From: Escherichia coli
GTDB lineage: Bacteria; Pseudomonadota; Gammaproteobacteria; Enterobacterales; Enterobacteriaceae
Direction: 5' to 3' (one strand)
DNA length: 64,000 bases
Assembly: GCF_044324785.1 (NCBI RefSeq)
Contig: NZ_CP172127.1
Shown here: positions 38,771-51,517 of the stretch, in pieces
Position numbering within the stretch: position 1 is the stretch's first letter
Layout of the letters: every line of letters starts with the position of its first letter
Program-made: the position numbers and the translations under genes
Notes under the pieces: generated by a model
Seen by the model: only the letters and a program-made list of their open reading frames with translations
Databases searched by the model: none
What the model was told of the DNA's origin: nothing

Positions 38771-40606
38771 CTACTCTTCGTCATCGCCATCAACATGCGC
38801 ACGAATCAGCGCCATGAACGGTTTGCCAAAGCGTTCCAGCTTGCGCATCCCAACGCCGTTAACGCTGAGCATTTCGCTGGCAGTGATCGGCATCTGTTCC
38901 GCCATCTCAATCAAGGTTGCGTCGTTAAATACCACGTACGGCGGGACATTGCTTTCATCGGCAATCGATTTACGCAGTTTGCGTAATTTGGCGAACAGTT
39001 TGCGATCGTAGTTGCCGCCGAAGGATTTCTGCATCGCTTTCGGTTTGAGCGCCACGATACGCGGCACGGCAAGTTGCAAAGAGGATTCGCCGCGCAGCAC
39101 CGGGCGCGCGGCCTCTGTCAGTTGTAGGGCAGAATGCTGGGCAATATTTTGCGTCACCAGGCCGAGGTGAATCAGCTGGCGGATCACGCTAACCCAATGT
39201 TCATGGCTTTTATCACGGCCCATGCCATAGACTTTCAGTTTGTCATGACCATAGTCGCGGATACGCTGGTTATTAGCGCCACGAATCACTTCCACCACAT
39301 AACCCATCCCAAACCGCTGATTCACACGACCAATGGTGGAAAGGGCAATCTGAGCATCGGTTGAACCATCGTATTGTTTCGGCGGATCGAGGCAGATATC
39401 GCAGTTCCCGCACGGCTCCTGCCGCCCTTCGCCAAAGTAGTTCAGCAGCACCAGACGACGGCAAGTTTGCGCTTCGGCAAACGCGCCCATCGCATTGAGT
39501 TTATGGCGCTCGATATCCTGCAACTGCCCCTGCGGTTTCTCTTCCAGACAACGGCGCAGCCACGCCATATCCGCTGGATCGTAAAACAGCATCGCTTCCG
39601 CGGGCAGGCCATCACGCCCGGCGCGTCCGGTTTCCTGATAATAGGATTCGATATTGCGCGGAATATCAAAGTGGACCACGAAGCGGACGTTTGGTTTATT
39701 GATGCCCATGCCGAACGCCACCGTCGCCACCACAATTTGCAGGTCATCGCGCTGGAATTTCTCCTGCACGTCGGCGCGAATATTATTTTCCAGCCCGGCA
39801 TGATAGGCCGCCGCGCTAATTCCCTTGCTTTGCAGGCGCGCAGCGGTGTCTTCTACTTTCGCCCGGCTGTTGCAGTAAATAATCCCCGACTTACCGCGTT
39901 GTTCCTGCACGTAGCGCATCAGCTGATCGAGAGGTTTGAACTTCTCCATCAACATGTAGCGAATATTCGGACGGTCAAAACTGCTAATTTGAATCAGCGG
40001 ATCGTTCAGCCCCAGCAGGCGCACGATATCCTGCCGCGTGGTGTCGTCGGCGGTGGCAGTCAGCGCCATAAACGGCAGCGTCGGAAAACGCTGACGCAGC
40101 TGACCGAGGGCAGCGTATTCCGGGCGGAAATCGTGGCCCCATTGGGAGATACAGTGCGCTTCATCAACGGCTAATAACACCGGATTCCAGTGCGCCAGAT
40201 GCTCAAGAAAGTTATCCAGCATCAGGCGTTCCGGCGCGATATAAAGCAGGCGGATTTGCCCGGTGCGACAGCCTGTCATAACTTCAAGTTGCTGCTCGCG
40301 GGTTTGCGTCGAGTTAAGGCACGCCGCCGCCACGCCGTTGGCTTGCAGTTGATCCACCTGATCTTTCATCAACGAAATCAGCGGTGAAACAACCACGGTA
40401 AGGCCGTTTAGCAATAAGGCAGGAATTTGATAGCAAAGGGATTTTCCGCCACCAGTGGGCATAACAACCAGGCAATCGCGACCGGAAAGTACGGTGTCGA
40501 TAATCTCTTCCTGGCCGGGGCGAAACTGTTGGTAGCCAAAGGTTTCTTGTAAAACCTGTTTAGCCCCTGACTCCAGATTCAACACTTCCGCCTGCGCCAC
40601 ATTCAC
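38771..40606 (-). CDS. recQ: ATP-dependent DNA helicase RecQ
   Basis: Helicase motifs ([16 protein letters not shown]), zinc-binding CGNCDIC, HRDC C-terminus; true start may be the GTG two codons in. Confidence 0.95.
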
Positions 40607-40608
40607 CC

Positions 40609-40637
40609 CGATTGCCTGAAATAAAAACAGGCGCTAT
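40609..40637 (-). terminator. Rho-independent terminator just upstream of recQ
   Basis: Minus strand CAGGCGCT-GAAAAT-AGCGCCTG followed by TTTTTAT. Confidence 0.65.
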
Positions 40638-40669
40638 TTTCAGCGCCTGCGCGAGAAACTGCAATGCTT

Positions 40670-41128
40670 TTAGCGTCTGGCTGGATAATGTTGGATGCTG
40701 GATTCCAGATTTGCCAGGATCAAAGCGACATCGGCATCCGCCAAACGAAATTCCGCCTGCCATATATTCTCTGACGTATGAAATGTAGGGCATAGCCCGC
40801 AAGCCAGTATCACTTTGATAATAATGACATCACCGGAATACCCTGTGTATTCGAACTCCAGGCATGGCTCGGTAAATTCCAGATTTTTCTCCGGGTAGCC
40901 ATCGGGAGAAGGGCGCTGCAACAATGTGGTAAACCACCTATGAAGCTTTGTTAAGTCATATGTCCCTATTGCCGGATCTATCTTTTCAAACCGCTGATTT
41001 CCCTGCGTCACGCCCACTTTGAGGAATAACCAGTTACCATCCCAGAAATTACTGGCATCAGGATACTGATACCCCATAACATCCAGCGTCAAAGTAACGG
41101 CCAGCTCACTATTGCTTAACGTAATCAT
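40670..41128 (-). CDS. Hypothetical 152-aa cytoplasmic protein between pldA and recQ
   Basis: Intact ORF with ATG start, no obvious SD, own terminator; no recognisable motif. Confidence 0.5.
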   Translation of the reverse strand: MITLSNSELAVTLTLDVMGYQYPDASNFWDGNWLFLKVGVTQGNQRFEKIDPAIGTYDLTKLHRWFTTLLQRPSPDGYPEKNLEFTEPCLEFEYTGYSGDVIIIKVILACGLCPTFHTSENIWQAEFRLADADVALILANLESSIQHYPARR

Positions 41129-41176
41129 ATCATTTGATTTTTAAACAAAAATTAGGTGCTGGCACTCTACCATGCA

Positions 41177-42046
41177 TTAAAACAGGTCGTTTAGCATAAC
41201 CCCCACACCAACGCGGGTCTGGTTGAAGTTATAGTCGATGAGCGATTCGCCATAGCCGCTGTAAACCTGAGTATAAAGGCGCACATGTTTGGTGATCGGG
41301 TAACTTAAGCCTAACTCCGCACCGCCGTAGCCCGTGTTCCAGTTGTACTGCCCTTTCGCACTGAGCACCGCATCACCGAGGTGATAGCCGATTTTAAGCT
41401 GGTAGTAACCCATATATTTGGTGATATCCGGGTTATCGTCAGTATTACCCACCACATACCACGGCTTCACCTCTACCAGCCAGTTACCGTTTTCTGCCAT
41501 CAGGCGTGTATAAAGGCGGTTCCAGCTGCGGGAGGTCGGGTCTGAACGCCCGTTAGAGTCGTGGTTATACCCCATCTCCACATCGCGCAGCGTCCAACCT
41601 GCAAAACGGTAATCGGTGGCAAAACCGAGGAACAATTGCGGTTCGTAGTTGGTTTCACGAAACGGTGAAGACTCTTCGCTATTGGACAGTTGCCACCAGG
41701 ATTTTTGCGTGTAAGACGCACCCAATACCGAGTTCGGGCCTAAAATCCCACGCCACAGCGGAAATGCCAGGCTCAACTGAAACTTTACTTCATCCTTACG
41801 CGCATTTTCCGCCCAGTCGTAACTGGCAATCGCTTCTTTATTCAGATCGCTGGTTTGGGTGTAGATGAGGTAGTTAGTGTCATAAGGATAGAGTGTGAAC
41901 GGATTGTCATGCTCCTGCAGCATATTGGCGATAATACTGCCACGCACCGCAGGCGCGTCATGCACCTCTTTCACCGTTGCCTCTTGTGCATATACTGCCA
42001 TAGGCAACATAAACACCGGCAACAACCAGCCCTGCAGAGTCCGCAT
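41177..42046 (-). CDS. pldA: Outer membrane phospholipase A
   Basis: 289-aa ORF with signal peptide and beta-barrel-like composition. Confidence 0.9.
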   Translation of the reverse strand: MRTLQGWLLPVFMLPMAVYAQEATVKEVHDAPAVRGSIIANMLQEHDNPFTLYPYDTNYLIYTQTSDLNKEAIASYDWAENARKDEVKFQLSLAFPLWRGILGPNSVLGASYTQKSWWQLSNSEESSPFRETNYEPQLFLGFATDYRFAGWTLRDVEMGYNHDSNGRSDPTSRSWNRLYTRLMAENGNWLVEVKPWYVVGNTDDNPDITKYMGYYQLKIGYHLGDAVLSAKGQYNWNTGYGGAELGLSYPITKHVRLYTQVYSGYGESLIDYNFNQTRVGVGVMLNDLF

Positions 42047-42210
42047 CGGTCGTGTTCTCCGTAACGAATTATTGATAAGGTGAATATTTTTCTGCGGGCT
42101 ATTTTACATACTTAACTCCATAGCCGTTAGTTATCCCTTCCTAAAGTAGAAACCAACAACAAAGAAGCATAAAATCAACATTTCATTAACTAATGAAGTG
42201 TAAGGATGAT

Positions 42211-42678
42211 ATGTCTGCCGTACTGACCGCTGAACAAGCCCTGAAATTAGTGGGTGAGATGTTTGTTTATCACATGCCATTTAACCGCGCATTGGGGATG
42301 GAACTGGAGCGTTACGAAAAAGAGTTCGCACAGCTGGCCTTTAAAAATCAGCCAATGATGGTGGGTAACTGGGCGCAAAGCATTTTGCACGGCGGGGTCA
42401 TTGCATCGGCGCTGGATGTCGCCGCCGGTCTGGTGTGCGTGGGAAGTACCTTAACCCGCCACGAAACCATCAGTGAAGATGAACTACGCCAGCGGCTATC
42501 GCGAATGGGGACCATTGATCTTCGCGTTGATTATCTGCGCCCTGGCAGAGGCGAGCGTTTTACTGCTACCAGTAGCCTGTTGCGGGCAGGCAATAAAGTC
42601 GCCGTCGCCCGCGTTGAATTACACAATGAAGAACAGCTTTATATTGCCAGCGCTACCGCCACCTATATGGTAGGTTGA
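42211..42678 (+). CDS. yigI: PaaI/YigI-family acyl-CoA thioesterase (hotdog fold)
   Basis: [34 protein letters not shown]... 155 aa. Confidence 0.85.
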
Positions 42679-42729
42679 TAACGTAAAAGCAGGTAAACTG
42701 CTGTTACCAATTAAAAATGAGTATTCCCG

Positions 42730-43620
42730 ATGGATGCAAAACAAACGCGGCAGGGCGTATTACTCGCTCTTGCCGCTTATTTTATTTGGGGTATTGCGCC
42801 AGCGTACTTCAAGCTGATTTACTACGTGCCCGCCGATGAGATCCTGACGCATCGCGTGATCTGGTCGTTTTTCTTTATGGTGGTGCTGATGAGCATCTGC
42901 CGCCAGTGGTCCTATTTAAAAACGCTGATTCAGACGCCACAGAAAATTTTTATGCTGGCAGTCTCTGCCGTGCTGATTGGTGGCAACTGGCTACTGTTTA
43001 TCTGGGCGGTGAACAATCACCATATGCTGGAAGCGAGCCTTGGTTACTTTATTAACCCGCTGGTGAACATTGTGCTGGGGATGATTTTCCTCGGCGAGCG
43101 ATTCCGCCGGATGCAATGGCTGGCGGTGATTCTGGCGATATGTGGCGTGTTGGTTCAGTTGTGGACTTTTGGTTCACTGCCGATTATCGCGCTGGGGCTG
43201 GCGTTTAGTTTTGCCTTCTACGGCCTGGTACGCAAGAAGATTGCTGTTGAAGCGCAAACCGGCATGTTAATCGAAACTATGTGGTTGCTGCCCGTGGCGG
43301 CGATTTACCTGTTTGCTATTGCCGACAGCTCAACCAGCCATATGGGGCAAAACCCGATGTCACTGAATTTACTGCTGATCGCCGCCGGGATTGTCACTAC
43401 CGTACCGCTGTTGTGTTTTACTGCGGCTGCGACACGCCTGCGTCTCTCAACGTTAGGCTTTTTTCAGTACATTGGCCCGACGCTGATGTTCCTGCTGGCT
43501 GTGACGTTTTATGGTGAAAAACCGGGTGCCGATAAGATGGTGACCTTCGCCTTTATTTGGGTGGCGCTGGCAATTTTTGTGATGGATGCGATTTATACGC
43601 AGCGTAGAACGTCCAAATAA
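42730..43620 (+). CDS. rarD: EamA/RarD-family membrane transporter
   Basis: 296-aa polytopic ORF. Confidence 0.85.
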   Translation: MDAKQTRQGVLLALAAYFIWGIAPAYFKLIYYVPADEILTHRVIWSFFFMVVLMSICRQWSYLKTLIQTPQKIFMLAVSAVLIGGNWLLFIWAVNNHHMLEASLGYFINPLVNIVLGMIFLGERFRRMQWLAVILAICGVLVQLWTFGSLPIIALGLAFSFAFYGLVRKKIAVEAQTGMLIETMWLLPVAAIYLFAIADSSTSHMGQNPMSLNLLLIAAGIVTTVPLLCFTAAATRLRLSTLGFFQYIGPTLMFLLAVTFYGEKPGADKMVTFAFIWVALAIFVMDAIYTQRRTSK

Positions 43621-43714
43621 AAAATAAATATATTCTGAAAAAATATGCCGACTCTTGCATGAGAGTGGGCATATTGCCATGCTGACAGGAGACTCACACA
43701 AGGATGTAAAATTT

Positions 43715-44095
43715 ATGTTACGTATGTTTATCCCAACATCTAATGGTAAGATTTCCAGACGCCGTTATATATTTTCATTTATTTTAATAAATTTCATTTT
43801 TGCCTTTCTTATTATCTTTTTTAACGATGGGGAAGCAGATTTTCTTGTTATAGTCTCTACCATCGTACTCCATTATCTCGTCATCAACTTGAATTGCCAA
43901 CGACTCCGTGATAGTGGTTTCGTCTATATAAAAACTTATGTTTTTGGTACATTAGCAGTATATATCATCTCTATCATCACAATGATAGCCGAAGATTTTG
44001 CCTGTTCAGGCAATGGTTCGATGATTTTTTTGATTTGTTATTTTTCCACTTTCAGTATGCTAATGCTTGCACCTACTGATTCATCAAAACAATAG
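43715..44095 (+). CDS. yigF: Small inner membrane protein YigF (DUF2628)
   Basis: [22 protein letters not shown]..., AT-rich, two TM segments. Confidence 0.75.
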
Positions 44096-44108
44096 TTATG
44101 GAGTATTT

Positions 44109-44489
44109 ATGAGTAAGGAATATATGAACGATGGTTCATTAAGTGAAAAATGGAAATACCGATTTAATTTTTATGATCAACATGGCTTTCCAGGATTCTG
44201 GGGGGCAACACCAGAATATAAAGCAGCATTTAAAACATTAAAAGTAAGACAACGATTAACTATTCAAATGAATTTCATTGCTTTCTTCTGTTCCTGGATC
44301 TATTTATTTGTTCTGGGATTATGGAAAAAAGCAATTATAGTTCTATTACTTGGCATTCTATCTCTATTTGTTGGTGCACTAATTGGCGTTAACATTCTGG
44401 GAATTGCCGTAGCAGCCTATGTTGCTGTTAACACGAACAAATGGTTTTATGAGAAAGAGGTAAAAGGGTTAAATACCTGGAGCCTTTGA
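44109..44489 (+). CDS. yigG: Small inner membrane protein YigG (DUF2628)
   Basis: MSKEYMNDGSLSEKWKYRFNFYDQHGF...; paralogous architecture to yigF. Confidence 0.75.
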   Translation: MSKEYMNDGSLSEKWKYRFNFYDQHGFPGFWGATPEYKAAFKTLKVRQRLTIQMNFIAFFCSWIYLFVLGLWKKAIIVLLLGILSLFVGALIGVNILGIAVAAYVAVNTNKWFYEKEVKGLNTWSL

Positions 44490-44529
44490 ATAACAGGTGG
44501 CTTAGCCAGGCTAAGCCACCGCCTTCTTT

Positions 44530-44672
44530 TTACAACCAGTTCTTCCGCTTAAAGTACAGATACGGTGCCAGGCCCGCGAGGATCATAAAGATAATCGCGC
44601 CAGGGTAGCCGAAACTCCACTTCAGTTCCGGCATAAACTCAAAGTTCATGCCATAGCTGGAGGCAATCCGCG
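44530..44672 (-). pseudogene. Diverged duplicate of the corA 3' end (last ~47 codons)
   Basis: ~143 bp at ~95% identity to 46241-46383; encodes the same ...[44 protein letters not shown] with only synonymous changes; homology begins exactly at the stop codon. Confidence 0.8.
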
Positions 44673-44856
44673 TAGGAAAAAGTTTCCTAATCGGTAAATT
44701 CAACATTTTGTTATTAACAATGAGCAAGACCAATCATTAACGACGTTCTCTTCAGAGATGTAATGAAAAAATGTGAAGTGTACTTCTTTTCTAAATATTT
44801 TTTTACCCTAGCATTTGTTCTCGAATTGATATTGAGCTTAAATATAACTAAGGCAA

Positions 44857-45711
44857 ATGCAAATGAATAACATATTACTTCCGCCAATTAATATTCCCTG
44901 TACACTTTTCGAAACTATTAGTTTATTCGATGATTTTTCTGCTGATGATATGCAATATGGTGATATGGTAGAACAAGACTTTCTCTCACTCGGCCTAAGC
45001 GATATCTCAGCAAAAGTTGATCCTTACCGACTTATTAAATACCATTTCCCTGGCCCAGGTTCTATTAATGTTGCTTTTAGTGCCTCAAGTTCCGGAACAA
45101 AAATATCACAACGTGAATGCACTGATATTTTATTTGCAGAAATGAAAGAACTAGCAAAAATGTTTTCCTTTTTTGGACAATATAAAACACTTATCGAAGA
45201 TCTGATTGAAAATTTTAGATATGGAAATGGCAGCAATTTTCATAGCCAACAATTAAATTTATCTTTTCATGAAAAAATAAATAAATATGGTTATAATAGT
45301 CCAATACGAATAATCAAAGAATGTATCGAAAATGGCATTAATTCAACTCCCTCGACAGGATACCAACCTCTTATCCTGCAAAGCATTAAAACCAAATTAC
45401 TTTCATCAAGACTAAATAAATTTAATGACTTCAAGGACAGTTTTAATGGCTTAGGAATCAGTGTTCATGATATTTCAGCTCAAAAAATATCTCTTTTAAG
45501 TTTTCAAAAATACGCTATAGGATGGAGTGCAACAATTCATTTTGTAGCACAGGACCACTTCGGTCTCGATGTAACTGATATCAAAAACAAGACTTATAGC
45601 AAATATAGATTTTTTCGCATATGGTTCTTTTTACAACGGCATAAAGACTTTGCTTTCAAACCTTTTTTCACCAATTTTAACACTATAGAAAGAATCGAAA
45701 ATTATCTATGA
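44857..45711 (+). CDS. Hypothetical 284-aa protein, AT-rich, no signal peptide; candidate effector/toxin-like protein
   Basis: Intact ORF in low-GC DNA inside the corA-repeat-bounded insert; stop overlaps the start of the next gene (ATGA). Confidence 0.5.
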   Translation: MQMNNILLPPINIPCTLFETISLFDDFSADDMQYGDMVEQDFLSLGLSDISAKVDPYRLIKYHFPGPGSINVAFSASSSGTKISQRECTDILFAEMKELAKMFSFFGQYKTLIEDLIENFRYGNGSNFHSQQLNLSFHEKINKYGYNSPIRIIKECIENGINSTPSTGYQPLILQSIKTKLLSSRLNKFNDFKDSFNGLGISVHDISAQKISLLSFQKYAIGWSATIHFVAQDHFGLDVTDIKNKTYSKYRFFRIWFFLQRHKDFAFKPFFTNFNTIERIENYL

Positions 45712-46199
45712 AAAGCAAACTCCAGAAAATTATATTATGTTTATTTCTTCTATGCTGCATCTATAATTTATGGACATTGCGTCCTGTACAGATTTTGTAT
45801 ACATACTCTGATGCTGGCAATTCAGTCTTTCTGGTCGTTGATCATCTGCCATGGACTGACAGCGATAAAATAAATTGGTATCTGAAGCATCAGAATGAAA
45901 TTAAAAATCAACATCCCCTACCAGAAGGTAGTTGGCATACCTGGTATGTCATTGATATCGGTAATGGCTTCACTGACTATAAAAAATATATTGAAGGGCC
46001 GTATGAAGATCTCTACTGTTTCCCGACAATTAAGAGCAATGATAATTGCATCGTGAAAAATTACTTAATGGTTATTAATGAATACCCTTATCGTAACACT
46101 CATATTGGTATTAACGATTTTACTGAGTATCAATTAACACAAGAAAATAAAATAGAGCGAGTTTTCAATCCGCATGACTTTAAAAAAGACAATTTTTAG
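45708..46199 (+). CDS. Hypothetical 163-aa protein with N-terminal signal peptide/membrane anchor; candidate periplasmic immunity-like partner
   Basis: N-terminal hydrophobic KIILCLFLLCCIYNLW; translationally coupled to the upstream gene. Confidence 0.5.
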   Translation: MKSKLQKIILCLFLLCCIYNLWTLRPVQILYTYSDAGNSVFLVVDHLPWTDSDKINWYLKHQNEIKNQHPLPEGSWHTWYVIDIGNGFTDYKKYIEGPYEDLYCFPTIKSNDNCIVKNYLMVINEYPYRNTHIGINDFTEYQLTQENKIERVFNPHDFKKDNF

Positions 46200-46240
46200 A
46201 AATAAGCCGGATAAAAAAATAGCTTTATCCGGCACTCATA

Positions 46241-47191
46241 TTACAACCAGTTCTTCCGCTTAAAGTACAGATACGGTGCCAGGCCCGCGAGGATCATAAA
46301 GATAATCGCGCCTGGGTAGCCGAAACTCCACTTCAGTTCTGGCATAAACTCAAAGTTCATCCCGTAGCTGGAAGCAACCAGCGTCGGTGGCAGGAACACC
46401 ACGGATACCACCGAGAAGATTTTGATGATGCGGTTCTGCTCGATGTTGATAAAGCCCATAGCCGCCTGCATCAGGAAGTTCACCTTCTGGAACAGGGATT
46501 CGTTATGCGGCAGCAGGGATTCGATATCTCGCAGGATTTCACGCGCCTGCTCCAGTTGCCCACCCGGTAAGCGTGCTTTACGTACCAGGAAGTTGAGCGC
46601 GCGCTGGGTATCCATCAGACACAGGCGAACTTTCCAGCCGATATCTTCCAGTTCCGCCAGCGTGGAGAGCGCCTCGTCGTACTCATCGCCCTGATGCCCT
46701 TCCATAATTACCCGGCTCAACTGCTCCAGGTCGCTGTAGATATTTTCAATTTCATCTGCCAACTGTTCGATTTTGGTTTCGAACAGATCCAGCAGCAGCT
46801 CGTAGGCATTACCGTCTACCATCGACTGGCTACGGGCACGCATACGATACAGACGGAATGCAGGCAATTCACGCTCACGCAGAGTAAACAGACGACCATC
46901 ACGGATGGTAAATGCCACAGTGGAGTTACCGGCGTGATCTTCCGCATCTTCAAAGAAGAAGAAGGAGTGAATATGCAGGCCGTCATCGTCTTCAAAGAAA
47001 CGTGCCGATGCTTCGATGTCTTCCAGTTCCGGGCGGGTTGCCAGGCTCTGGCCAAGTTCAGATTGTACGCGCAGTCGCTCGTCGTCGTCCGGTTCGACAA
47101 GATCAATCCATACTGCATTTACAAGGGGTTGTGACTCTTCGACTTCCAGCCGGGTCAGTCGGTTATTTTCCAGTTGAAATGCGCTCAGCAT
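46241..47191 (-). CDS. corA: Magnesium/cobalt transport protein CorA
   Basis: [19 protein letters not shown]..., 316 aa, GMN motif ([12 protein letters not shown]). Confidence 0.95.
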
Positions 47192-47560: not shown

Positions 47561-48325
47561 ATGGCGCATCGGCTACTCATTGGTAAAGGAATGATCACCT
47601 TGAATCTCAAACGGATTTTTCTCGCCCTCACCTTACTTCCCTTGTTTGCTGTTGCCGCTGATGATTGCGCACTCTCAGATCCGACGCTGACCGTACAGGC
47701 GTATACCGTTAATCCTCAAACAGAGCGGGTGAAAATATACTGGCAAAAAGCCAATGGCGAAGCGTGGGGAACGTTACATGCTCTGCTGGCGGATATGAAT
47801 AGTCAGGGTCAGGTGCAGATGGCGATGAACGGCGGCATCTATGATGAAAGCTATGCGCCGCTCGGTTTGTACATCGAAAACGGTCAGCAGAAGGTGGCGT
47901 TAAATCTCGCTTCAGGTGAAGGGAATTTCTTTATTCGTCCTGGCGGCGTGTTTTATGTCGCGGGAGATAAAATCGGCATCGTTCGTCTGGATGCCTTTAA
48001 AACCAGTAAAGAGATTCAGTTTGCGGTGCAGTCAGGGCCAATGTTGATGGAAAACGGCGTAATTAATCCGCGTATTCATCCCAACGTCGCCTCACGTAAA
48101 ATTCGTAACGGTGTTGGGATTAATAAACAAGGGAACGCCGTGTTTTTGTTGAGCAAGCAGGCGACAAATTTTTATGATTTTGCCTGTTATGCCAAAGCGA
48201 AACTGAACGTTGAGCAGCTGCTTTATCTTGATGGCACGATTTCACATATGTATATGAAAGGCGGGGCAATCCCGTGGCAACGCTATCCTTTTGTCACCAT
48301 GATTTCCGTCGAGCGGAAAGGTTAA
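47561..48325 (+). CDS. yigE: YigE (DUF2233, secreted)
   Basis: 254-aa ORF with signal peptide; position between corA and uvrD. Confidence 0.75.
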   Translation: MAHRLLIGKGMITLNLKRIFLALTLLPLFAVAADDCALSDPTLTVQAYTVNPQTERVKIYWQKANGEAWGTLHALLADMNSQGQVQMAMNGGIYDESYAPLGLYIENGQQKVALNLASGEGNFFIRPGGVFYVAGDKIGIVRLDAFKTSKEIQFAVQSGPMLMENGVINPRIHPNVASRKIRNGVGINKQGNAVFLLSKQATNFYDFACYAKAKLNVEQLLYLDGTISHMYMKGGAIPWQRYPFVTMISVERKG

Positions 48326-48407
48326 GCATTGTACACTCGAGGAGGCCAGACAAACTGGGGCTGGCTACACAGCTGGAAAATCATCAGATAAATGAAGGGA
48401 AACAAAA

Positions 48408-49310
48408 ATGAAAAAAACGCTCGCAACGTTATTTTTATTAACGTGTCTGGGATCATCATCCGCTTATGCGGATAACGCTTTGATTTTACAAACTGATTTT
48501 AGCCTGAAAGATGGTGCCGTCTCGGCGATGAAAGGGGTCGCATTCGGTGTTGACCATAATCTTAAAATATTTGATTTAACACACGAAATTCCACCGTATA
48601 ACATCTGGGAAGGCGCTTACCGCCTGTATCAGACCGCCAGTTACTGGCCGCAAGGTTCGGTATTTGTCAGTGTGGTCGATCCTGGTGTTGGTACAGACCG
48701 TAAATCGGTAGTGCTGAAAACCAAAAACGGTCAATACTTCGTTTCACCAGATAACGGTACGCTCACTTTGGTGGCACAAACTCTGGGTATTGATAGCGTC
48801 CGGGAAATCGACGAAAAAGCTAACCGCCTGAAAGGTTCTGAAAAGTCATATACCTTCCACGGTCGTGACGTGTATGCCTACACCGGTGCGCGTCTGGCTT
48901 CCGGGGCGATTACGTTCGAACAGGTGGGGCCAGAGCTTCCTGCAAAAGTTGTCGAACTTTCTTATCAGAAAGCAAAAGCAACAAAAGGTGAAGTGAAGGG
49001 CAATATCCCGATTCTCGATATTCAGTACGGCAACGTCTGGAGCAATATCAGCGACGAGTTGCTGAATCAGGCAGGAATCAAACTCAACGACACGTTGTGT
49101 GTGACCATTTCCGAAGGTTCCCAGCAAAAATACGCAGGGAAAATGCCGTATGTCGCAAGCTTCGGCGATGTGCCGGAAGGCCAGCCGATGGTGTATCTGA
49201 ACAGCTTGTTGAATGTTTCCGTGGCGCTGAATATGGATAATTTTGCGCAGAAACATCAGGTTGCGTCTGGTGCTGACTGGAATATTGATGTGAAGAAGTG
49301 CGCTAAGTAA
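48408..49310 (+). CDS. Secreted DUF62-family protein (SAM hydroxide adenosyltransferase/halogenase-like fold)
   Basis: Signal peptide MKKTLATLFLLTCLGSSSAYA; motifs TDFSLKDGAVSAMKGV, DLTHEIPPYNI, VVDPGVGT, VSPDNG resemble the DUF62 family as I recall it. Confidence 0.65.
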   Translation: MKKTLATLFLLTCLGSSSAYADNALILQTDFSLKDGAVSAMKGVAFGVDHNLKIFDLTHEIPPYNIWEGAYRLYQTASYWPQGSVFVSVVDPGVGTDRKSVVLKTKNGQYFVSPDNGTLTLVAQTLGIDSVREIDEKANRLKGSEKSYTFHGRDVYAYTGARLASGAITFEQVGPELPAKVVELSYQKAKATKGEVKGNIPILDIQYGNVWSNISDELLNQAGIKLNDTLCVTISEGSQQKYAGKMPYVASFGDVPEGQPMVYLNSLLNVSVALNMDNFAQKHQVASGADWNIDVKKCAK

Positions 49311-49354
49311 GGTGCTGATGCGGAATGCGGTGTGGCGCACCGCATTCCGCAACG

Positions 49355-51517
49355 TCACACCGTCTCCAACCGGGCGTAAGCCGCCACCAGCCATTTAATA
49401 CCCTGGCCCTGGAACGCCACCTGCAAACGGCTATGCTCACCGCTGCCTTCCATATTGACGATGGTGCCTTCACCAAACTTAGCGTGGCGTACGCGCTGGC
49501 CGAGCTTGTAGCCGCTGTCGTTCTCGACCATCGGCGTACCCATCCGTTGATGGCTGACCGGGCGGCTTACCGTGGCGCGCAGGCGCACCTCTTCCACACA
49601 CTCTTCCGGCAACTCACCGATAAAGCGCGACGGGCGATGGTAAACCTCTTTGCCATACAGACGGCGGGTTTCCGCGTAGGTCAGCGTCAGTTTCTGCATC
49701 GCGCGGGTTACGCCAACGTAGGCCAGACGGCGTTCTTCTTCCAGACGTCCGCCTTCATCCAGCGACATCTGACTTGGGAACATACCCTCTTCCATACCGA
49801 CGATAAACACCTGCGGGAACTCCAGCCCTTTCGCCGAGTGTAGCGTCATCAACTGCACCGCGTCCTGCCAGGTATCCGCCTGCCCTTCACCTGCTTCCAG
49901 TGCCGCATGGGAGAGGAACGCCTGCAGCGGCATTAAATCTTCGTCTTCTTCGTTGTAGCTGAACTGGCGCGTCGCCGTCACCAGTTCCTCCAGGTTTTCG
50001 ATACGCGTCTGACCTTTTTCGCCCTTCTCCTGCTCGTACATGGTGCGCAAGCCGGAGTCTTTAATTACCCGGTCAGTCTGTACATGCAGCGGCATATCGG
50101 CAGTTTCCTGCGCTAAGGCGTCGATCAGTTCCATAAACCGTTGCAAGGCACTGGCAGCACGTCCGGCGAGGGCTTTTTCCTGCAACAGTTCACGACATGC
50201 CTGCCAGAGTGTTAACTGACGATCGCGCGATGTCTGACGTACCACGTCCAGCGTCCGGTCACCAATACCCCGCGTTGGCGTATTCACCACGCGCTCAAAC
50301 GCCGCGTCGTCGTTGCGGTTGGCAATCAGGCGCAGATACGAGAGCGCGTCTTTGATTTCCTGGCGTTCGAAGAAGCGCATCCCGCCGTAAATACGGTACG
50401 GCATACTCGCCTGCAACAGTGCTTCTTCCAGCACACGCGACTGGGCGTTACTGCGGTAGAGAATGGCGCACTCGGCGAGCGCCCCGCCGTTGTCCTGCCA
50501 GGTCTTGATACGGTTAACCACAAAACGCGCTTCGTCGAGTTCGTTAAAAGCGCAATAGAGGGAAATCGGCTCACCGTCCGCGCCATCGGTCCACAGTTTT
50601 TTACCCAGACGCCCGTTGTTGTTTTCAATCAGGGCGTTAGCGGCGCTCAGAATATTGCTGGTAGAGCGGTAGTTTTGCTCCAGACGAATAGTTTCGGCAC
50701 CGGGGAAATCATTAAGGAAACGCTGAATATTCTCCACCTGCGCCCCGCGCCAGCCGTAGATTGACTGGTCGTCATCGCCAACGATCATCACTTTGCCGGT
50801 GTCGCCCGCCAGCAGGCGGATCCACGCGTACTGAATGTTGTTGGTATCCTGGAATTCGTCCACCAGGATGTTAGTAAAACGTTCGCGGTAGTGTTGCAGG
50901 ATATGCGGCTTGTTAAGCCACAACTCGTGAGCACGTAGCAGCAGCTCGGCGAAGTCCACCAGGCCCGCGCGGTCACACGCTTCCTGATACGCCTGATACA
51001 CCTTCTGCCAGGTCTGCTCCACCGGATTACCGTAGCTTTGAATATGATGTGGACGCAGGCCTTCATCTTTCTGGCTGTTGATGTACCACATTGCCTGGCG
51101 CGGCGGCCACTGCTTCTCGTCGAGGTTCATCGCCTTGATTAGGCGTTTGAGCAGGCGTAGCTGGTCCTCGCTGTCGAGGATCTGAAAATCCTGCGGCAGA
51201 TTGGCGTCCATATGGTGCGCACGCAGCAGACGGTGCGCCAGCCCGTGGAAGGTGCCGACCCACATGCCGCCCTGGCTGGTGCCCATCAGCTGCCCGATAC
51301 GATGACGCATCTCCGCCGCCGCTTTGTTGGTAAACGTTACCGCCATAATCGAGTATGGCGAGCAGTTTTCCACGCTCATCAGCCAGGCGATACGATGCAC
51401 CAATACGCGCGTCTTACCACTGCCCGCGCCCGCCAGCACCAGAAGGTTGCTGCGTGGCGCGGCCACCGCTTCGCGCTGTTTGTCATTAAGGCTGTCGAGC
51501 AGGTAAGAAACGTCCAT
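49355..51517 (-). CDS. uvrD: DNA helicase II UvrD
   Basis: MDVSYLLDSLNDKQREAVAAPRSNLLVLAGAGSGKTRVL... 720 aa; the ORF-track extension upstream is probably untranslated. Confidence 0.95.
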   Translation of the reverse strand: MDVSYLLDSLNDKQREAVAAPRSNLLVLAGAGSGKTRVLVHRIAWLMSVENCSPYSIMAVTFTNKAAAEMRHRIGQLMGTSQGGMWVGTFHGLAHRLLRAHHMDANLPQDFQILDSEDQLRLLKRLIKAMNLDEKQWPPRQAMWYINSQKDEGLRPHHIQSYGNPVEQTWQKVYQAYQEACDRAGLVDFAELLLRAHELWLNKPHILQHYRERFTNILVDEFQDTNNIQYAWIRLLAGDTGKVMIVGDDDQSIYGWRGAQVENIQRFLNDFPGAETIRLEQNYRSTSNILSAANALIENNNGRLGKKLWTDGADGEPISLYCAFNELDEARFVVNRIKTWQDNGGALAECAILYRSNAQSRVLEEALLQASMPYRIYGGMRFFERQEIKDALSYLRLIANRNDDAAFERVVNTPTRGIGDRTLDVVRQTSRDRQLTLWQACRELLQEKALAGRAASALQRFMELIDALAQETADMPLHVQTDRVIKDSGLRTMYEQEKGEKGQTRIENLEELVTATRQFSYNEEDEDLMPLQAFLSHAALEAGEGQADTWQDAVQLMTLHSAKGLEFPQVFIVGMEEGMFPSQMSLDEGGRLEEERRLAYVGVTRAMQKLTLTYAETRRLYGKEVYHRPSRFIGELPEECVEEVRLRATVSRPVSHQRMGTPMVENDSGYKLGQRVRHAKFGEGTIVNMEGSGEHSRLQVAFQGQGIKWLVAAYARLETV

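What the first reader, a model, noticed from the sequence alone, without database searches (positions are those of the whole stretch)
48408..49310. Signal-peptide-bearing DUF62 (SAM hydroxide adenosyltransferase/fluorinase-like) protein between yigE and uvrD
The motif set (TDF..., DLTHEIPPYNI, VVDPGVGT, SPDNG) resembles the SAM-cleaving DUF62/fluorinase-chlorinase fold, yet the protein has a clear Sec signal peptide, which would place a nominally SAM-dependent enzyme in the periplasm where SAM is not expected. I do not recall a K-12 gene here, but I am unsure.
Basis: partly seen in the sequence, partly recalled or inferred. Interest (0 to 1): 0.4.

Follow-up and report, generated by a model that had tools for sequence, protein, structure and literature searches.

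The report
Exported SAM-hydrolase-family enzyme in E. coli
This accessory E. coli gene encodes a member of the enzyme family that splits S-adenosylmethionine into adenosine and methionine, but unlike every studied member it carries a conserved export signal, belongs to a large unstudied exported branch of the family, and has a 91%-identical copy in Helicobacter pylori.

Summary
Window 48408..49310 (+) is a 300-aa ORF with strong Pfam hits to both DUF62 domains, SAM_HAT_N (4.9e-53) and SAM_HAT_C (3.9e-18). Its model has the DUF62 fold (TM 0.87-0.91 to 2zbu). It lies between yigE and uvrD in 2293 of 5426 complete E. coli genomes; K-12 has a REP-like spacer there instead.

The signal peptide is real. 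It has the K/R, hydrophobic and AYA|D layout, and 78 of 79 close species-level homologues from at least eight phyla carry an equivalent N-terminus. Two cysteines (C231, C298) co-occur perfectly in the proteobacterial subclade.

The Asp-Arg-His triad that defines the hydrolase type (PH0463 D68/R75/H127) is intact as D91/R98/H151. The halide-binding residues of the halogenases are absent. Scores fall far below the NCBIfam cut-offs for the characterised cytoplasmic (R)-SAM hydrolases.

My best reading is a periplasmic SAM hydrolase that turns non-importable SAM into adenosine plus methionine. The chemistry and the role are inferred, not shown.

Unexpectedly, the closest relative is H. pylori HP0709: 91% aa, 84% nt, dS 0.94, dN/dS 0.04. 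This indicates cross-class transfer of a single-gene cassette. I found no paper describing exported DUF62 enzymes. Verdict: new variant of a known kind, moderate interest.

The parts
48394..48399 (+). Shine-Dalgarno-like GAAGGG, 8 nt upstream of the ATG
   Evidence: Read directly from the sequence. It lies inside the 26-nt 5' stretch that is also conserved in the H. pylori copy.
48408..49310 (+). Complete ORF, 300-aa precursor of an exported DUF62 / SAM hydroxide adenosyltransferase family protein
   Evidence: ORF list. Pfam hits. RefSeq names it 'SAM hydrolase/SAM-dependent halogenase family protein', WP_000751627.1, in strain A10.
48408..48470 (+). Signal peptide, residues 1-21 (MKKTLATLFLLTCLGSSSAYA), with a predicted SPase I cut between A21 and D22
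   Evidence: Tripartite layout seen by inspection. An equivalent N-terminus occurs in 78 of 79 homologues. Identity to H. pylori is 62% here against 93% in the mature part, and dN/dS is 0.475 against 0.040. It is not a lipobox: the residue at -1 is T, and the Cys is replaced by Q in H. pylori L009.
48483..48929 (+). SAM_HAT_N domain, residues 26-174
   Evidence: PF01887, 4.9e-53.
48999..49280 (+). SAM_HAT_C domain, residues 198-291, containing LDIQYGN (the family's IDxxFGN motif)
   Evidence: PF20257, 3.9e-18. The motif is defined in PMC4859513.
48678..48680 (+). Asp91 codon, first residue of the catalytic triad (PH0463 D68)
   Evidence: HMMER alignment to 1wu8/2wr8. Invariant in the 77-sequence alignment A1, where it is D67.
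48699..48701 (+). Arg98 codon, second residue of the triad (PH0463 R75)
   Evidence: Invariant in A1, where it is R74.
48858..48860 (+). His151 codon, third residue of the triad (PH0463 H127), within TFHGRD
   Evidence: At least 90% conserved in A1, where it is H127.
49098..49100 (+). Cys231 codon, proposed disulfide partner
   Evidence: The same 34 of 79 sequences carry Cys here and at residue 298; the other 45 carry neither.
49299..49301 (+). Cys298 codon, proposed disulfide partner
   Evidence: The distance between the two cysteines in the model could not be read.
49311..49361 (.). Strong hairpin with a perfect core at 49320-49350, between the converging stops of this gene and uvrD
   Evidence: RNA fold gives -35.4 kcal/mol with z = -4.5. 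It has no T-run, so a terminator role is inferred.
48326..49333 (.). About 1-kb segment that K-12 replaces with a REP-like spacer of about 125 bp
   Evidence: Alignment of the window against K-12 derivative CJ236, locus L001.
48382..49316 (+). Stretch with nucleotide homology (83.7%) to the H. pylori HP0709 locus: the gene, 26 nt upstream and 6 nt downstream
   Evidence: blastn of the window against L003.
47561..48325 (+). yigE, the upstream same-strand neighbour, 82 nt away. It is a NAGPA-type phosphodiester glycosidase and also has a hydrophobic N-terminus
   Evidence: PF09992, 1.5e-18. RefSeq name. No terminator-like site was found in the spacer, so co-transcription is possible but not shown.

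Best explanation
The gene encodes a Sec-exported, periplasmic member of the DUF62 (SAM hydroxide adenosyltransferase) family. Signal peptidase I removes residues 1-21. The 279-residue mature protein adopts the two-domain DUF62 fold, probably as the trimer typical of the family. In the proteobacterial subclade a C231-C298 disulfide probably stabilises it. The intact Asp91-Arg98-His151 triad activates water for SN2 attack on C5' of an adenosyl-sulfonium substrate, most likely S-adenosylmethionine, giving adenosine and L-methionine. Its likely role is scavenging: SAM released by other cells cannot cross the inner membrane, but both products can be imported. Shown here: family, fold, triad, export signal and its conservation, purifying selection. 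Inferred: cleavage site, disulfide, trimer, substrate, physiological role.
For: - **Family and fold.** Pfam N and C domains hit at 4.9e-53 and 3.9e-18. The AF2 model has pLDDT 94.3, and Foldseek gives TM 0.87-0.91 to 2zbu, followed by SalL, FlA and PH0463.
- **Hydrolase chemistry.** D91/R98/H151 align with PH0463 D68/R75/H127, the triad said to activate water in the hydrolases (PMC4859513). D91 and R98 are invariant and H151 is at least 90% conserved in 77 exported homologues.
- **Ligand motifs.** D30 (FlA D16), PDNG, and LDIQYGN with N209 (FlA N215) are all kept.
- **Export.** 78 of 79 species-level homologues from Proteobacteria, Bacteroidota, Verrucomicrobiota, Synergistota, Firmicutes, Fusobacteriota, Thermotogota and Planctomycetota have a K/R, hydrophobic, small-residue N-terminus before ALVxQTDFG. 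Of the 150 nearest 50%-identity clusters, 72 have one, and they group on the tree.
- **Cysteine pair.** Co-occurrence is perfect: 34 sequences have both cysteines, 45 have neither.
- **Selection.** dN/dS is 0.04 for the mature part and 0.475 for the signal peptide.
- **H. pylori.** HP0709 is listed in an outer-membrane-vesicle proteome (PMC8756444). H. pylori lacks de novo purine synthesis and imports adenosine through NupC (PMC3368855).
- **Fusions.** Exported homologues are fused to other hydrolases: Y_phosphatase3, Peptidase_M15 and alpha/beta hydrolase.
Against: - No enzyme assay or localisation experiment exists for any exported member.
- No SignalP-type predictor was available, so the export call rests on inspection, a hydrophobicity heuristic and conservation.
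- NCBIfam scores are far below the cut-offs of the characterised (R)-SAM hydrolases: 131.5 against 350, and 116.9 against 470. Substrate or stereoselectivity may therefore differ.
- No conserved gene neighbour, such as a nucleoside or methionine transporter, supports scavenging.
- The vesicle proteome also lists ribosomal proteins, so it is weak evidence for location.
- The cysteine pair is essentially one clade-level event, and I could not measure the distance between the cysteines in the model.
- The availability of SAM in the periplasm is assumed, not shown.
Confidence: 0.55

Rival explanations
1. The protein is exported and catalytically active, but its physiological substrate is another adenosine compound with a good leaving group at C5', not SAM. 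Candidates are decarboxylated SAM, another adenosyl-sulfonium compound, a 5'-halo- or 5'-sulfamoyl-adenosine natural product, or mainly the inactive (R)-epimer that builds up in aged extracellular SAM.
For: The protein scores well below the equivalog cut-offs of the known SAM hydrolases. The exported clade has its own invariant residues, for example W67 and W80 within NIW and YWP. SAM is not an established periplasmic metabolite. The characterised family members prefer the (R)-epimer (bioRxiv 10.1101/2025.08.29.672840).
Against: All residues the literature names as ligand-binding or catalytic for SAM hydrolysis are kept. No biosynthetic or resistance genes sit nearby.
Confidence: 0.22
2. The start codon is mis-called, and the real product is a cytoplasmic (R)-SAM hydrolase that begins at TTG codon 25 (M-ILQTDF...), like the studied family members.
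For: Cytoplasmic homologues start 2-8 residues before TDF. An in-frame TTG lies at that position.
Against: There is no SD before the TTG, while GAAGGG lies 8 nt before the ATG. The 5' extension is open, indel-free and hydrophobic in 78 of 79 homologues, with dN/dS 0.475 between E. coli and H. pylori. Nucleotide homology with H. pylori begins upstream of the ATG and includes the SD.
Confidence: 0.04
3. It is a SAM-dependent halogenase, an adenosyl-chloride synthase as some H. pylori annotations say, working in a chloride-rich compartment.
For: It has the same fold as SalL, ClA1 and FlA. One source names HP0709 'adenosyl-chloride synthase' (PMC6090961).
Against: The halogenases lack the D-R-H triad and use T80/S158 (FlA) or Y70/G131 (SalL). 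This protein has the triad, and where the chlorinases have Y-P-E-T-G and W-Y-G-K-D it has D-P-G-V-G and F-H-G-R-D. The TIGR04507 fluorinase model scores 83.9 against a cut-off of 400.
Confidence: 0.04
4. It is a non-catalytic exported adenosine- or SAM-binding protein, or a decaying accessory gene with no current role.
For: The gene is dispensable: 58% of complete E. coli genomes lack it. It has no conserved operon partner.
Against: The catalytic triad is conserved and purifying selection is strong, with dN/dS 0.04 over dS 0.94. The gene is kept at the same locus in Escherichia lineages that differ by 5-7% in flanking nucleotide sequence.
Confidence: 0.08

Closest known systems
SAM hydroxide adenosyltransferase PH0463 (Pyrococcus horikoshii; PDB 1wu8/2wr8) and the related T. 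maritima protein 2zbu
   Same: Both Pfam domains, the fold (TM 0.80-0.91), the D68/R75/H127 triad, the PxNG and ID..[FY]GN motifs, and the ribose-binding Asp are shared.
   Different: Those proteins are cytoplasmic and begin a few residues before TDF. This protein has a 21-residue cleavable signal peptide, a C-terminal extension ending in Cys298, and only about 30-35% identity to them.
(R)-S-adenosyl-L-methionine hydrolases (Salinispora StDUF62, MJ1651 / PDB 22uy, S. acidocaldarius and H. volcanii SAMH; NCBIfam NF058624 and NF053629)
   Same: Same family and the same predicted chemistry, SAM to adenosine plus methionine.
   Different: Their role is removing the inactive epimer from the cytoplasmic SAM pool, which an exported enzyme cannot do. 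Scores are 131.5 and 116.9 bits against cut-offs of 350 and 470.
SAM-dependent halogenases SalL, ClA1/ClA2 and fluorinase FlA
   Same: Fold, probable trimeric architecture, and SN2 displacement at C5' of SAM.
   Different: The halide-binding residues are replaced here by the hydrolase triad. The halogenases are cytoplasmic, sit in biosynthetic gene clusters, and the fluorinase model scores 83.9 against 400.
H. pylori HP0709 (jhp0648; UniProt O25413)
   Same: It is 91% identical over all 300 residues, with the same length, an equivalent signal peptide, the same cysteine pair and the same triad.
   Different: It lies in another bacterial class and another context, between HP0708 and homA, and it appears to be core there rather than accessory. 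It is also functionally uncharacterised. It is known only as a gastric-cancer GWAS hit, a serology antigen and a vesicle-proteome entry.
Periplasmic nucleotide-scavenging enzymes of E. coli (UshA, CpdB, AphA, RNase I). This comparison rests on my own knowledge, not on a test here.
   Same: The proposed logic is the same: an exported hydrolase turns a charged adenosine derivative that cannot be imported into a nucleoside that can.
   Different: The folds and chemistry are unrelated. This is a working analogy only.

Membership tests
Pfam SAM_HAT / DUF62 superfamily | Significant match to both the N-terminal (PF01887) and C-terminal (PF20257) domain models | tested here: met
   4.9e-53 and 3.9e-18.
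Pfam SAM_HAT / DUF62 superfamily | Two-domain fold: an alpha/beta N-domain plus an antiparallel beta C-domain | tested here: met
   AF2 model with pLDDT 94.3. Foldseek gives E = 3.6e-31 and TM 0.87/0.91 to 2zbu, and the 40 hits with E <= 0.001 are all DUF62 family structures.
Pfam SAM_HAT / DUF62 superfamily | Conserved motifs PxNGL and IDxxFGN, and active-site residues D16 and N215 in FlA numbering (PMC4859513) | tested here: met
   PDNGT at 114-118, LDIQYGN at 203-209, D30 and N209. These are invariant or nearly so in A1.
Pfam SAM_HAT / DUF62 superfamily | Homotrimer with active sites at subunit interfaces | not testable with these tools
   Only a monomer was modelled.
SAM hydroxide adenosyltransferase (hydrolase type) | Asp-Arg-His triad (PH0463 D68/R75/H127) | tested here: met
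   D91/R98/H151, from the HMMER alignment to 1wu8/2wr8 and conservation in A1.
SAM hydroxide adenosyltransferase (hydrolase type) | Catalyses SAM + H2O to adenosine + L-methionine | not testable with these tools
   This needs an enzyme assay.
(R)-SAM hydrolase equivalogs (NCBIfam NF058624, NF053629) | Whole-protein score above the curated cut-off | tested here: not met
   131.5 against 350, and 116.9 against 470.
(R)-SAM hydrolase equivalogs (NCBIfam NF058624, NF053629) | Cytoplasmic location, so the enzyme has access to the cellular SAM pool | tested here: not met
   A conserved N-terminal signal peptide is present. This rests on sequence only.
SAM-dependent halogenases (fluorinase TIGR04507; SalL-type chlorinase) | Halide-coordinating residues (FlA T80/S158, SalL Y70/G131), no D-R-H triad, and a score above the cut-off | tested here: not met
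   The triad is present. TIGR04507 scores 83.9 against 400. The alignment to SalL and ClA1 shows hydrolase-type residues at those positions.
Sec/SPase I-exported periplasmic proteins | Positively charged n-region, hydrophobic h-region of about 10-15 residues, and a c-region with small residues at -3 and -1 | tested here: met
   MKK / TLATLFLLTCLG / SSSAYA|D. The maximum 9-residue hydropathy is about 2.6 in the near-identical E. coli copy L007, which differs from the window protein at T7A. No dedicated predictor was available.
Sec/SPase I-exported periplasmic proteins | The signal is conserved across orthologues | tested here: met
   78 of 79 homologues. 72 of the 150 nearest cluster representatives.
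Sec/SPase I-exported periplasmic proteins | Experimentally shown export and cleavage | not testable with these tools
   The only indirect evidence is that HP0709 appears in an H. pylori vesicle proteome that also contains cytoplasmic proteins.

The most novel reading that the evidence does not exclude
Exported DUF62 enzymes form a widespread, unrecognised class of extracytoplasmic SAM-harvesting hydrolases. They let bacteria use environmental or host-derived SAM, possibly its accumulating inactive (R)-epimer, as a combined purine and methionine source. One such single-gene cassette moved between an Escherichia-like gammaproteobacterium and the ancestor of H. pylori. There it became a core gene in an organism that cannot make purines, and it now carries a gastric-cancer-associated variant.
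Probability: 0.3. Interest if true: 0.65.

Novelty: new variant of a known kind. Interest (0 to 1): 0.45.

Why it matters
Every characterised DUF62 enzyme works inside the cell, either cleaning up the inactive SAM epimer or making halogenated nucleosides. A large exported branch of the family means there is either a substrate pool of SAM-like molecules outside the cytoplasm or a new substrate for this chemistry. Neither possibility is discussed in the literature I could search.

The hypothesis is easy to test with a small soluble enzyme, an HPLC assay and auxotroph growth on SAM. The near-identical H. pylori copy, HP0709, has been flagged by a gastric-cancer GWAS and by serology while carrying contradictory names (acetolactate synthase, adenosyl-chloride synthase). 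A correct functional assignment would clear that up. The 91% identity between E. coli and H. pylori is also an unusually clean case of single-gene transfer between bacterial classes that share the human gut.

Tried and rejected
- **Gene neighbourhood.** I called and clustered ORFs across 80 loci. No partner is conserved beyond genus level. In Aeromonas a GGDEF protein, a DEAD-box helicase and an RNase T2-like gene recur nearby, but that is within-genus synteny and not independent evidence. The yigE adjacency is specific to Escherichia.
- **Defence or phage origin.** PADLOC and PHROGs gave no hits.
- **Plasmid vector for the transfer.** The E. coli and Aeromonas hits in the plasmid collection are multi-megabase records (about 4.9 Mb), chromosome-sized rather than plasmid-sized. 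The true plasmid copies, in Enterococcus, are the form without a signal peptide. One H. pylori 'phage' record contains the gene, and the separate HpGP prophage study reports a prophage hotspot flanked by homA and this gene; whether that record simply includes host flank was not checked.
- **Disulfide geometry.** The structure tool does not expose coordinates, so I could not measure the C231-C298 distance.
- **Literature.** Searches for DUF62, 'hydroxide adenosyltransferase', 'SAM hydrolase' plus 'signal peptide', HP0709/jhp0648/O25413, and MJ1651/PH0463 found no description of an exported member.
- **Lipoprotein reading.** Rejected: LLTC is not a canonical lipobox, and the Cys is not conserved.
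- **Promoter and terminator scan.** Counts were no higher than in shuffled sequence, so I make no claim about a promoter.

Full report
**1. The observation**

A GAAGGG Shine-Dalgarno sequence lies 8 nt upstream. All four quoted motifs are in the translation. Pfam matches both halves of the DUF62 architecture: SAM_HAT_N (PF01887, 4.9e-53, residues 26-174) and SAM_HAT_C (PF20257, 3.9e-18, residues 198-291).

An AlphaFold2 model of the mature part, built on 77 homologues, is confident (pLDDT 94.3, pTM 0.88). In Foldseek, all 40 hits with E <= 0.001 are DUF62 family structures. They are led by T. maritima 2zbu (TM 0.87/0.91), then ClA1, SalL, fluorinase, PH0463 and MJ1651. Sequence searches of the PDB agree.

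**2. Where it sits**

The window is E. coli. The local order is DUF943 gene, corA (-), ysgD, yigE (+), this gene (+), uvrD (-), yigB, xerC.

The gene is at this locus in 2293 of 5426 complete E. coli genomes. The others, including the K-12 derivative CJ236, match only the flanks. In K-12, homology stops at the yigE stop codon and resumes at about window 49334. The roughly 1-kb cassette is replaced by about 125 bp with REP-like palindromes.

Two divergent Escherichia lineages carry the gene at the same place (L007 and L008). Their flanks are only 93-95% identical to the window, and dS within the gene is about 0.3. The gene is therefore old in the genus, and the K-12 state is more likely a loss. 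That direction is an inference, because no outgroup could be scanned.

RefSeq already calls the product 'SAM hydrolase/SAM-dependent halogenase family protein'. Other sources call it 'S-adenosylmethionine hydrolase' or, wrongly, 'acetolactate synthase'.

**3. The signal peptide is real**

Residues 1-21 are MKK / TLATLFLLTCLG / SSSAYA, followed by D. This is the n, h and c layout with small residues at -3 and -1. The Pfam domain and the first beta-strand begin only at about residue 25, which is where cytoplasmic homologues start.

An in-frame TTG at codon 25 could in principle give a cytoplasmic form, but it has no SD. More important, the extension is conserved as a signal peptide:

- A scan of one genome per species returned 80 loci at 55-98% identity.
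- In 78 of the 79 loci that could be scored, the ORF continues upstream of ALVxQTDFG into a start codon, one to four K/R residues, a hydrophobic stretch (9-residue hydropathy of at least 2.0) and an AxA-like end. A few have lipoboxes instead.
- These genomes span Proteobacteria, Bacteroidota, Verrucomicrobiota, Synergistota, Firmicutes, Fusobacteriota, Thermotogota and Planctomycetota.
- Among the 150 best representatives of 50%-identity clusters from 1.8 billion proteins, 72 have such an N-terminus and 49 do not. The two kinds separate on a neighbour-joining tree.
- Between E. coli and H. pylori the signal region is 62% identical with dN/dS 0.475, against 93% and 0.040 for the mature part. 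That is the usual pattern for a translated signal peptide whose sequence is only loosely constrained.

One further hint comes from the two cysteines of the mature protein, C231 and C298. They co-occur perfectly: the same 34 sequences have both and 45 have neither. This fits a disulfide formed in an oxidising compartment. It is essentially one clade-level event, however, and I could not read the distance from the model.

I had no SignalP-type tool and no experiment, so export is strongly supported by sequence but not proven.

**4. What chemistry it should do**

PMC4859513 lists the family's defining features:

- motifs PxNGL and IDxxFGN;
- active-site residues D16 and N215 in fluorinase numbering;
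- for the hydrolases, a D68-R75-H127 triad that activates water;
- for the halogenases, T80/S158 (fluorinase) or Y70/G131 (SalL) instead of the triad.

The HMMER alignment to PH0463 puts D91, R98 and H151 of this protein exactly on D68, R75 and H127. D91 and R98 are invariant, and H151 is at least 90% conserved, in the 77 exported homologues. D30, PDNG, LDIQYGN and N209 are also kept. Against SalL and ClA1, the halide-site positions carry hydrolase-type residues.

So the protein is of the hydrolase type, not the halogenase type. The fluorinase model scores 83.9 bits against a cut-off of 400. It is also not an equivalog of the characterised cytoplasmic (R)-SAM hydrolases: it scores 131.5 against 350 and 116.9 against 470.

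**5. The best mechanism and its limits**

I propose the following sequence of events:

1. The precursor is exported through Sec and cut after A21.
2. The mature enzyme folds in the periplasm.
3. It hydrolyses SAM, or a close adenosyl-sulfonium analogue, to adenosine plus methionine.
4. Both products are imported.

This resembles the logic of other periplasmic scavenging hydrolases of E. coli, an analogy that rests on my own knowledge. It would suit H. pylori, which lacks de novo purine synthesis and takes up adenosine through NupC (PMC3368855).

Characterised family members prefer the inactive (R)-epimer, which should accumulate in aged extracellular SAM. An (R)-selective scavenger is therefore an attractive variant of the idea.

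Three things weaken this reading:

- No neighbour gene points to transport or salvage.
- Fusions of exported homologues are to assorted hydrolases: Y_phosphatase3, a D-Ala-D-Ala dipeptidase and an alpha/beta hydrolase. That fits an extracytoplasmic hydrolytic lifestyle but does not identify the substrate.
- No assay exists.

I put about 0.55 on 'exported SAM hydrolase', more on export alone, and less on the scavenging role.

**6. An unexpected relative**

The closest homologues outside Escherichia and Shigella are not other enterobacteria. They are H. pylori and H. acinonychis, at about 90% identity over all 300 residues. The H. pylori gene lies on complete chromosomes between rsmH/HP0708 and homA, which makes it HP0709.

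- Against the window gene it is 91% identical in protein and 84% in DNA. Third codon positions are 66% identical, dS is 0.94 and dN/dS is 0.055.
- Nucleotide homology covers only the gene, 26 nt upstream including the SD, and 6 nt downstream. This is a single-gene cassette, nearly the same segment that K-12 lacks.
- The next relatives are Aeromonas (72-76%), Edwardsiella, Pasteurellaceae, Thorsellia and beta-proteobacterial MAGs.
- On the tree, the E. coli and H. pylori pair is nested among these relatives as sister to Pasteurellaceae. The Helicobacter copy was therefore acquired from a gammaproteobacterial source, or both copies came from one unsampled donor.
- Base composition is intermediate in both hosts. 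In E. coli the gene is 47% GC with GC3 of 50%, against GC3 of 70% in uvrD. In H. pylori it is 43% GC with GC3 of 45%, against 30-43% in its neighbours.

HP0709 has no assigned function in the papers I found. It appears as a gastric-cancer GWAS hit (D/N at residue 49; PMC6090961), as a serological marker and in a vesicle proteome. A prophage integration hotspot in H. pylori is often flanked on its 3' side by homA and, less often, by this gene (PMC11321410).

**7. Verdict**

- Already known: the family assignment, which is in RefSeq.
- New as far as I could search: the protein belongs to a large, phylogenetically coherent exported branch of DUF62 with an intact hydrolase triad, and it is shared almost unchanged between E. 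coli and H. pylori.

I rate it a new variant of a known kind, of moderate interest. The function is testable with simple experiments.

Noticed in passing
window 48382-49316; L003 5981-6909: H. pylori HP0709 is 91% identical in protein and 84% in DNA to this E. coli gene. Homology is limited to the gene plus its SD region, and the pair nests inside gammaproteobacterial sequences on the tree. This looks like a clean single-gene transfer between bacterial classes.
   Followed up: partly
window about 45000-46200 (DUF943 gene at 45708..46199, +): A low-GC islet (30-38% GC) next to corA carries genes of the DUF943 and 'YPO3983' families. The 40000-46300 stretch is found at 80% coverage or more in only 301 of 5426 complete E. 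coli genomes. K-12 has yigF directly beside corA.
   Followed up: no
L001 2427-2572 (K-12 derivative CJ236): The K-12 yigE-uvrD spacer consists of REP-like palindromes (gccggatgcggcg ... cgcatccggca) in place of the 1-kb cassette. No direct repeats or mobile-element remnants were seen at the junctions.
   Followed up: partly
window 49311-49361: A very stable hairpin (-35.4 kcal/mol, z = -4.5) lies between the converging stops of the DUF62 gene and uvrD. It has no T-run, so it may be a bidirectional terminator or a REP-like element.
   Followed up: partly
L073 4971-6887 and L080 (Fervidobacterium); P0204; P0161: Exported DUF62 proteins occur fused to other hydrolase domains. One has a duplicated SAM_HAT_C plus a Y_phosphatase3 domain, one has a Peptidase_M15 D-Ala-D-Ala dipeptidase, and one has an alpha/beta hydrolase.
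   Followed up: partly
database names for the protein: Many records call this protein 'acetolactate synthase' and one paper calls HP0709 'adenosyl-chloride synthase'. Neither name fits the residues seen here, and the conflict has already confused a GWAS interpretation.
   Followed up: partly
L012, L019, L027, L029 and other Aeromonas loci, 2-3 genes downstream of the DUF62 gene: An exported RNase T2/RNase I-like gene (HGLWPQ motif, with its own signal peptide) recurs near the Aeromonas copies. This could hint at a nucleoside-scavenging neighbourhood, or it could simply be genus-level synteny.
   Followed up: no
H4, NZ_CP172336.1: In one E. coli genome an IS4 element is inserted within the yigE to DUF62 to uvrD stretch.
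   Followed up: no
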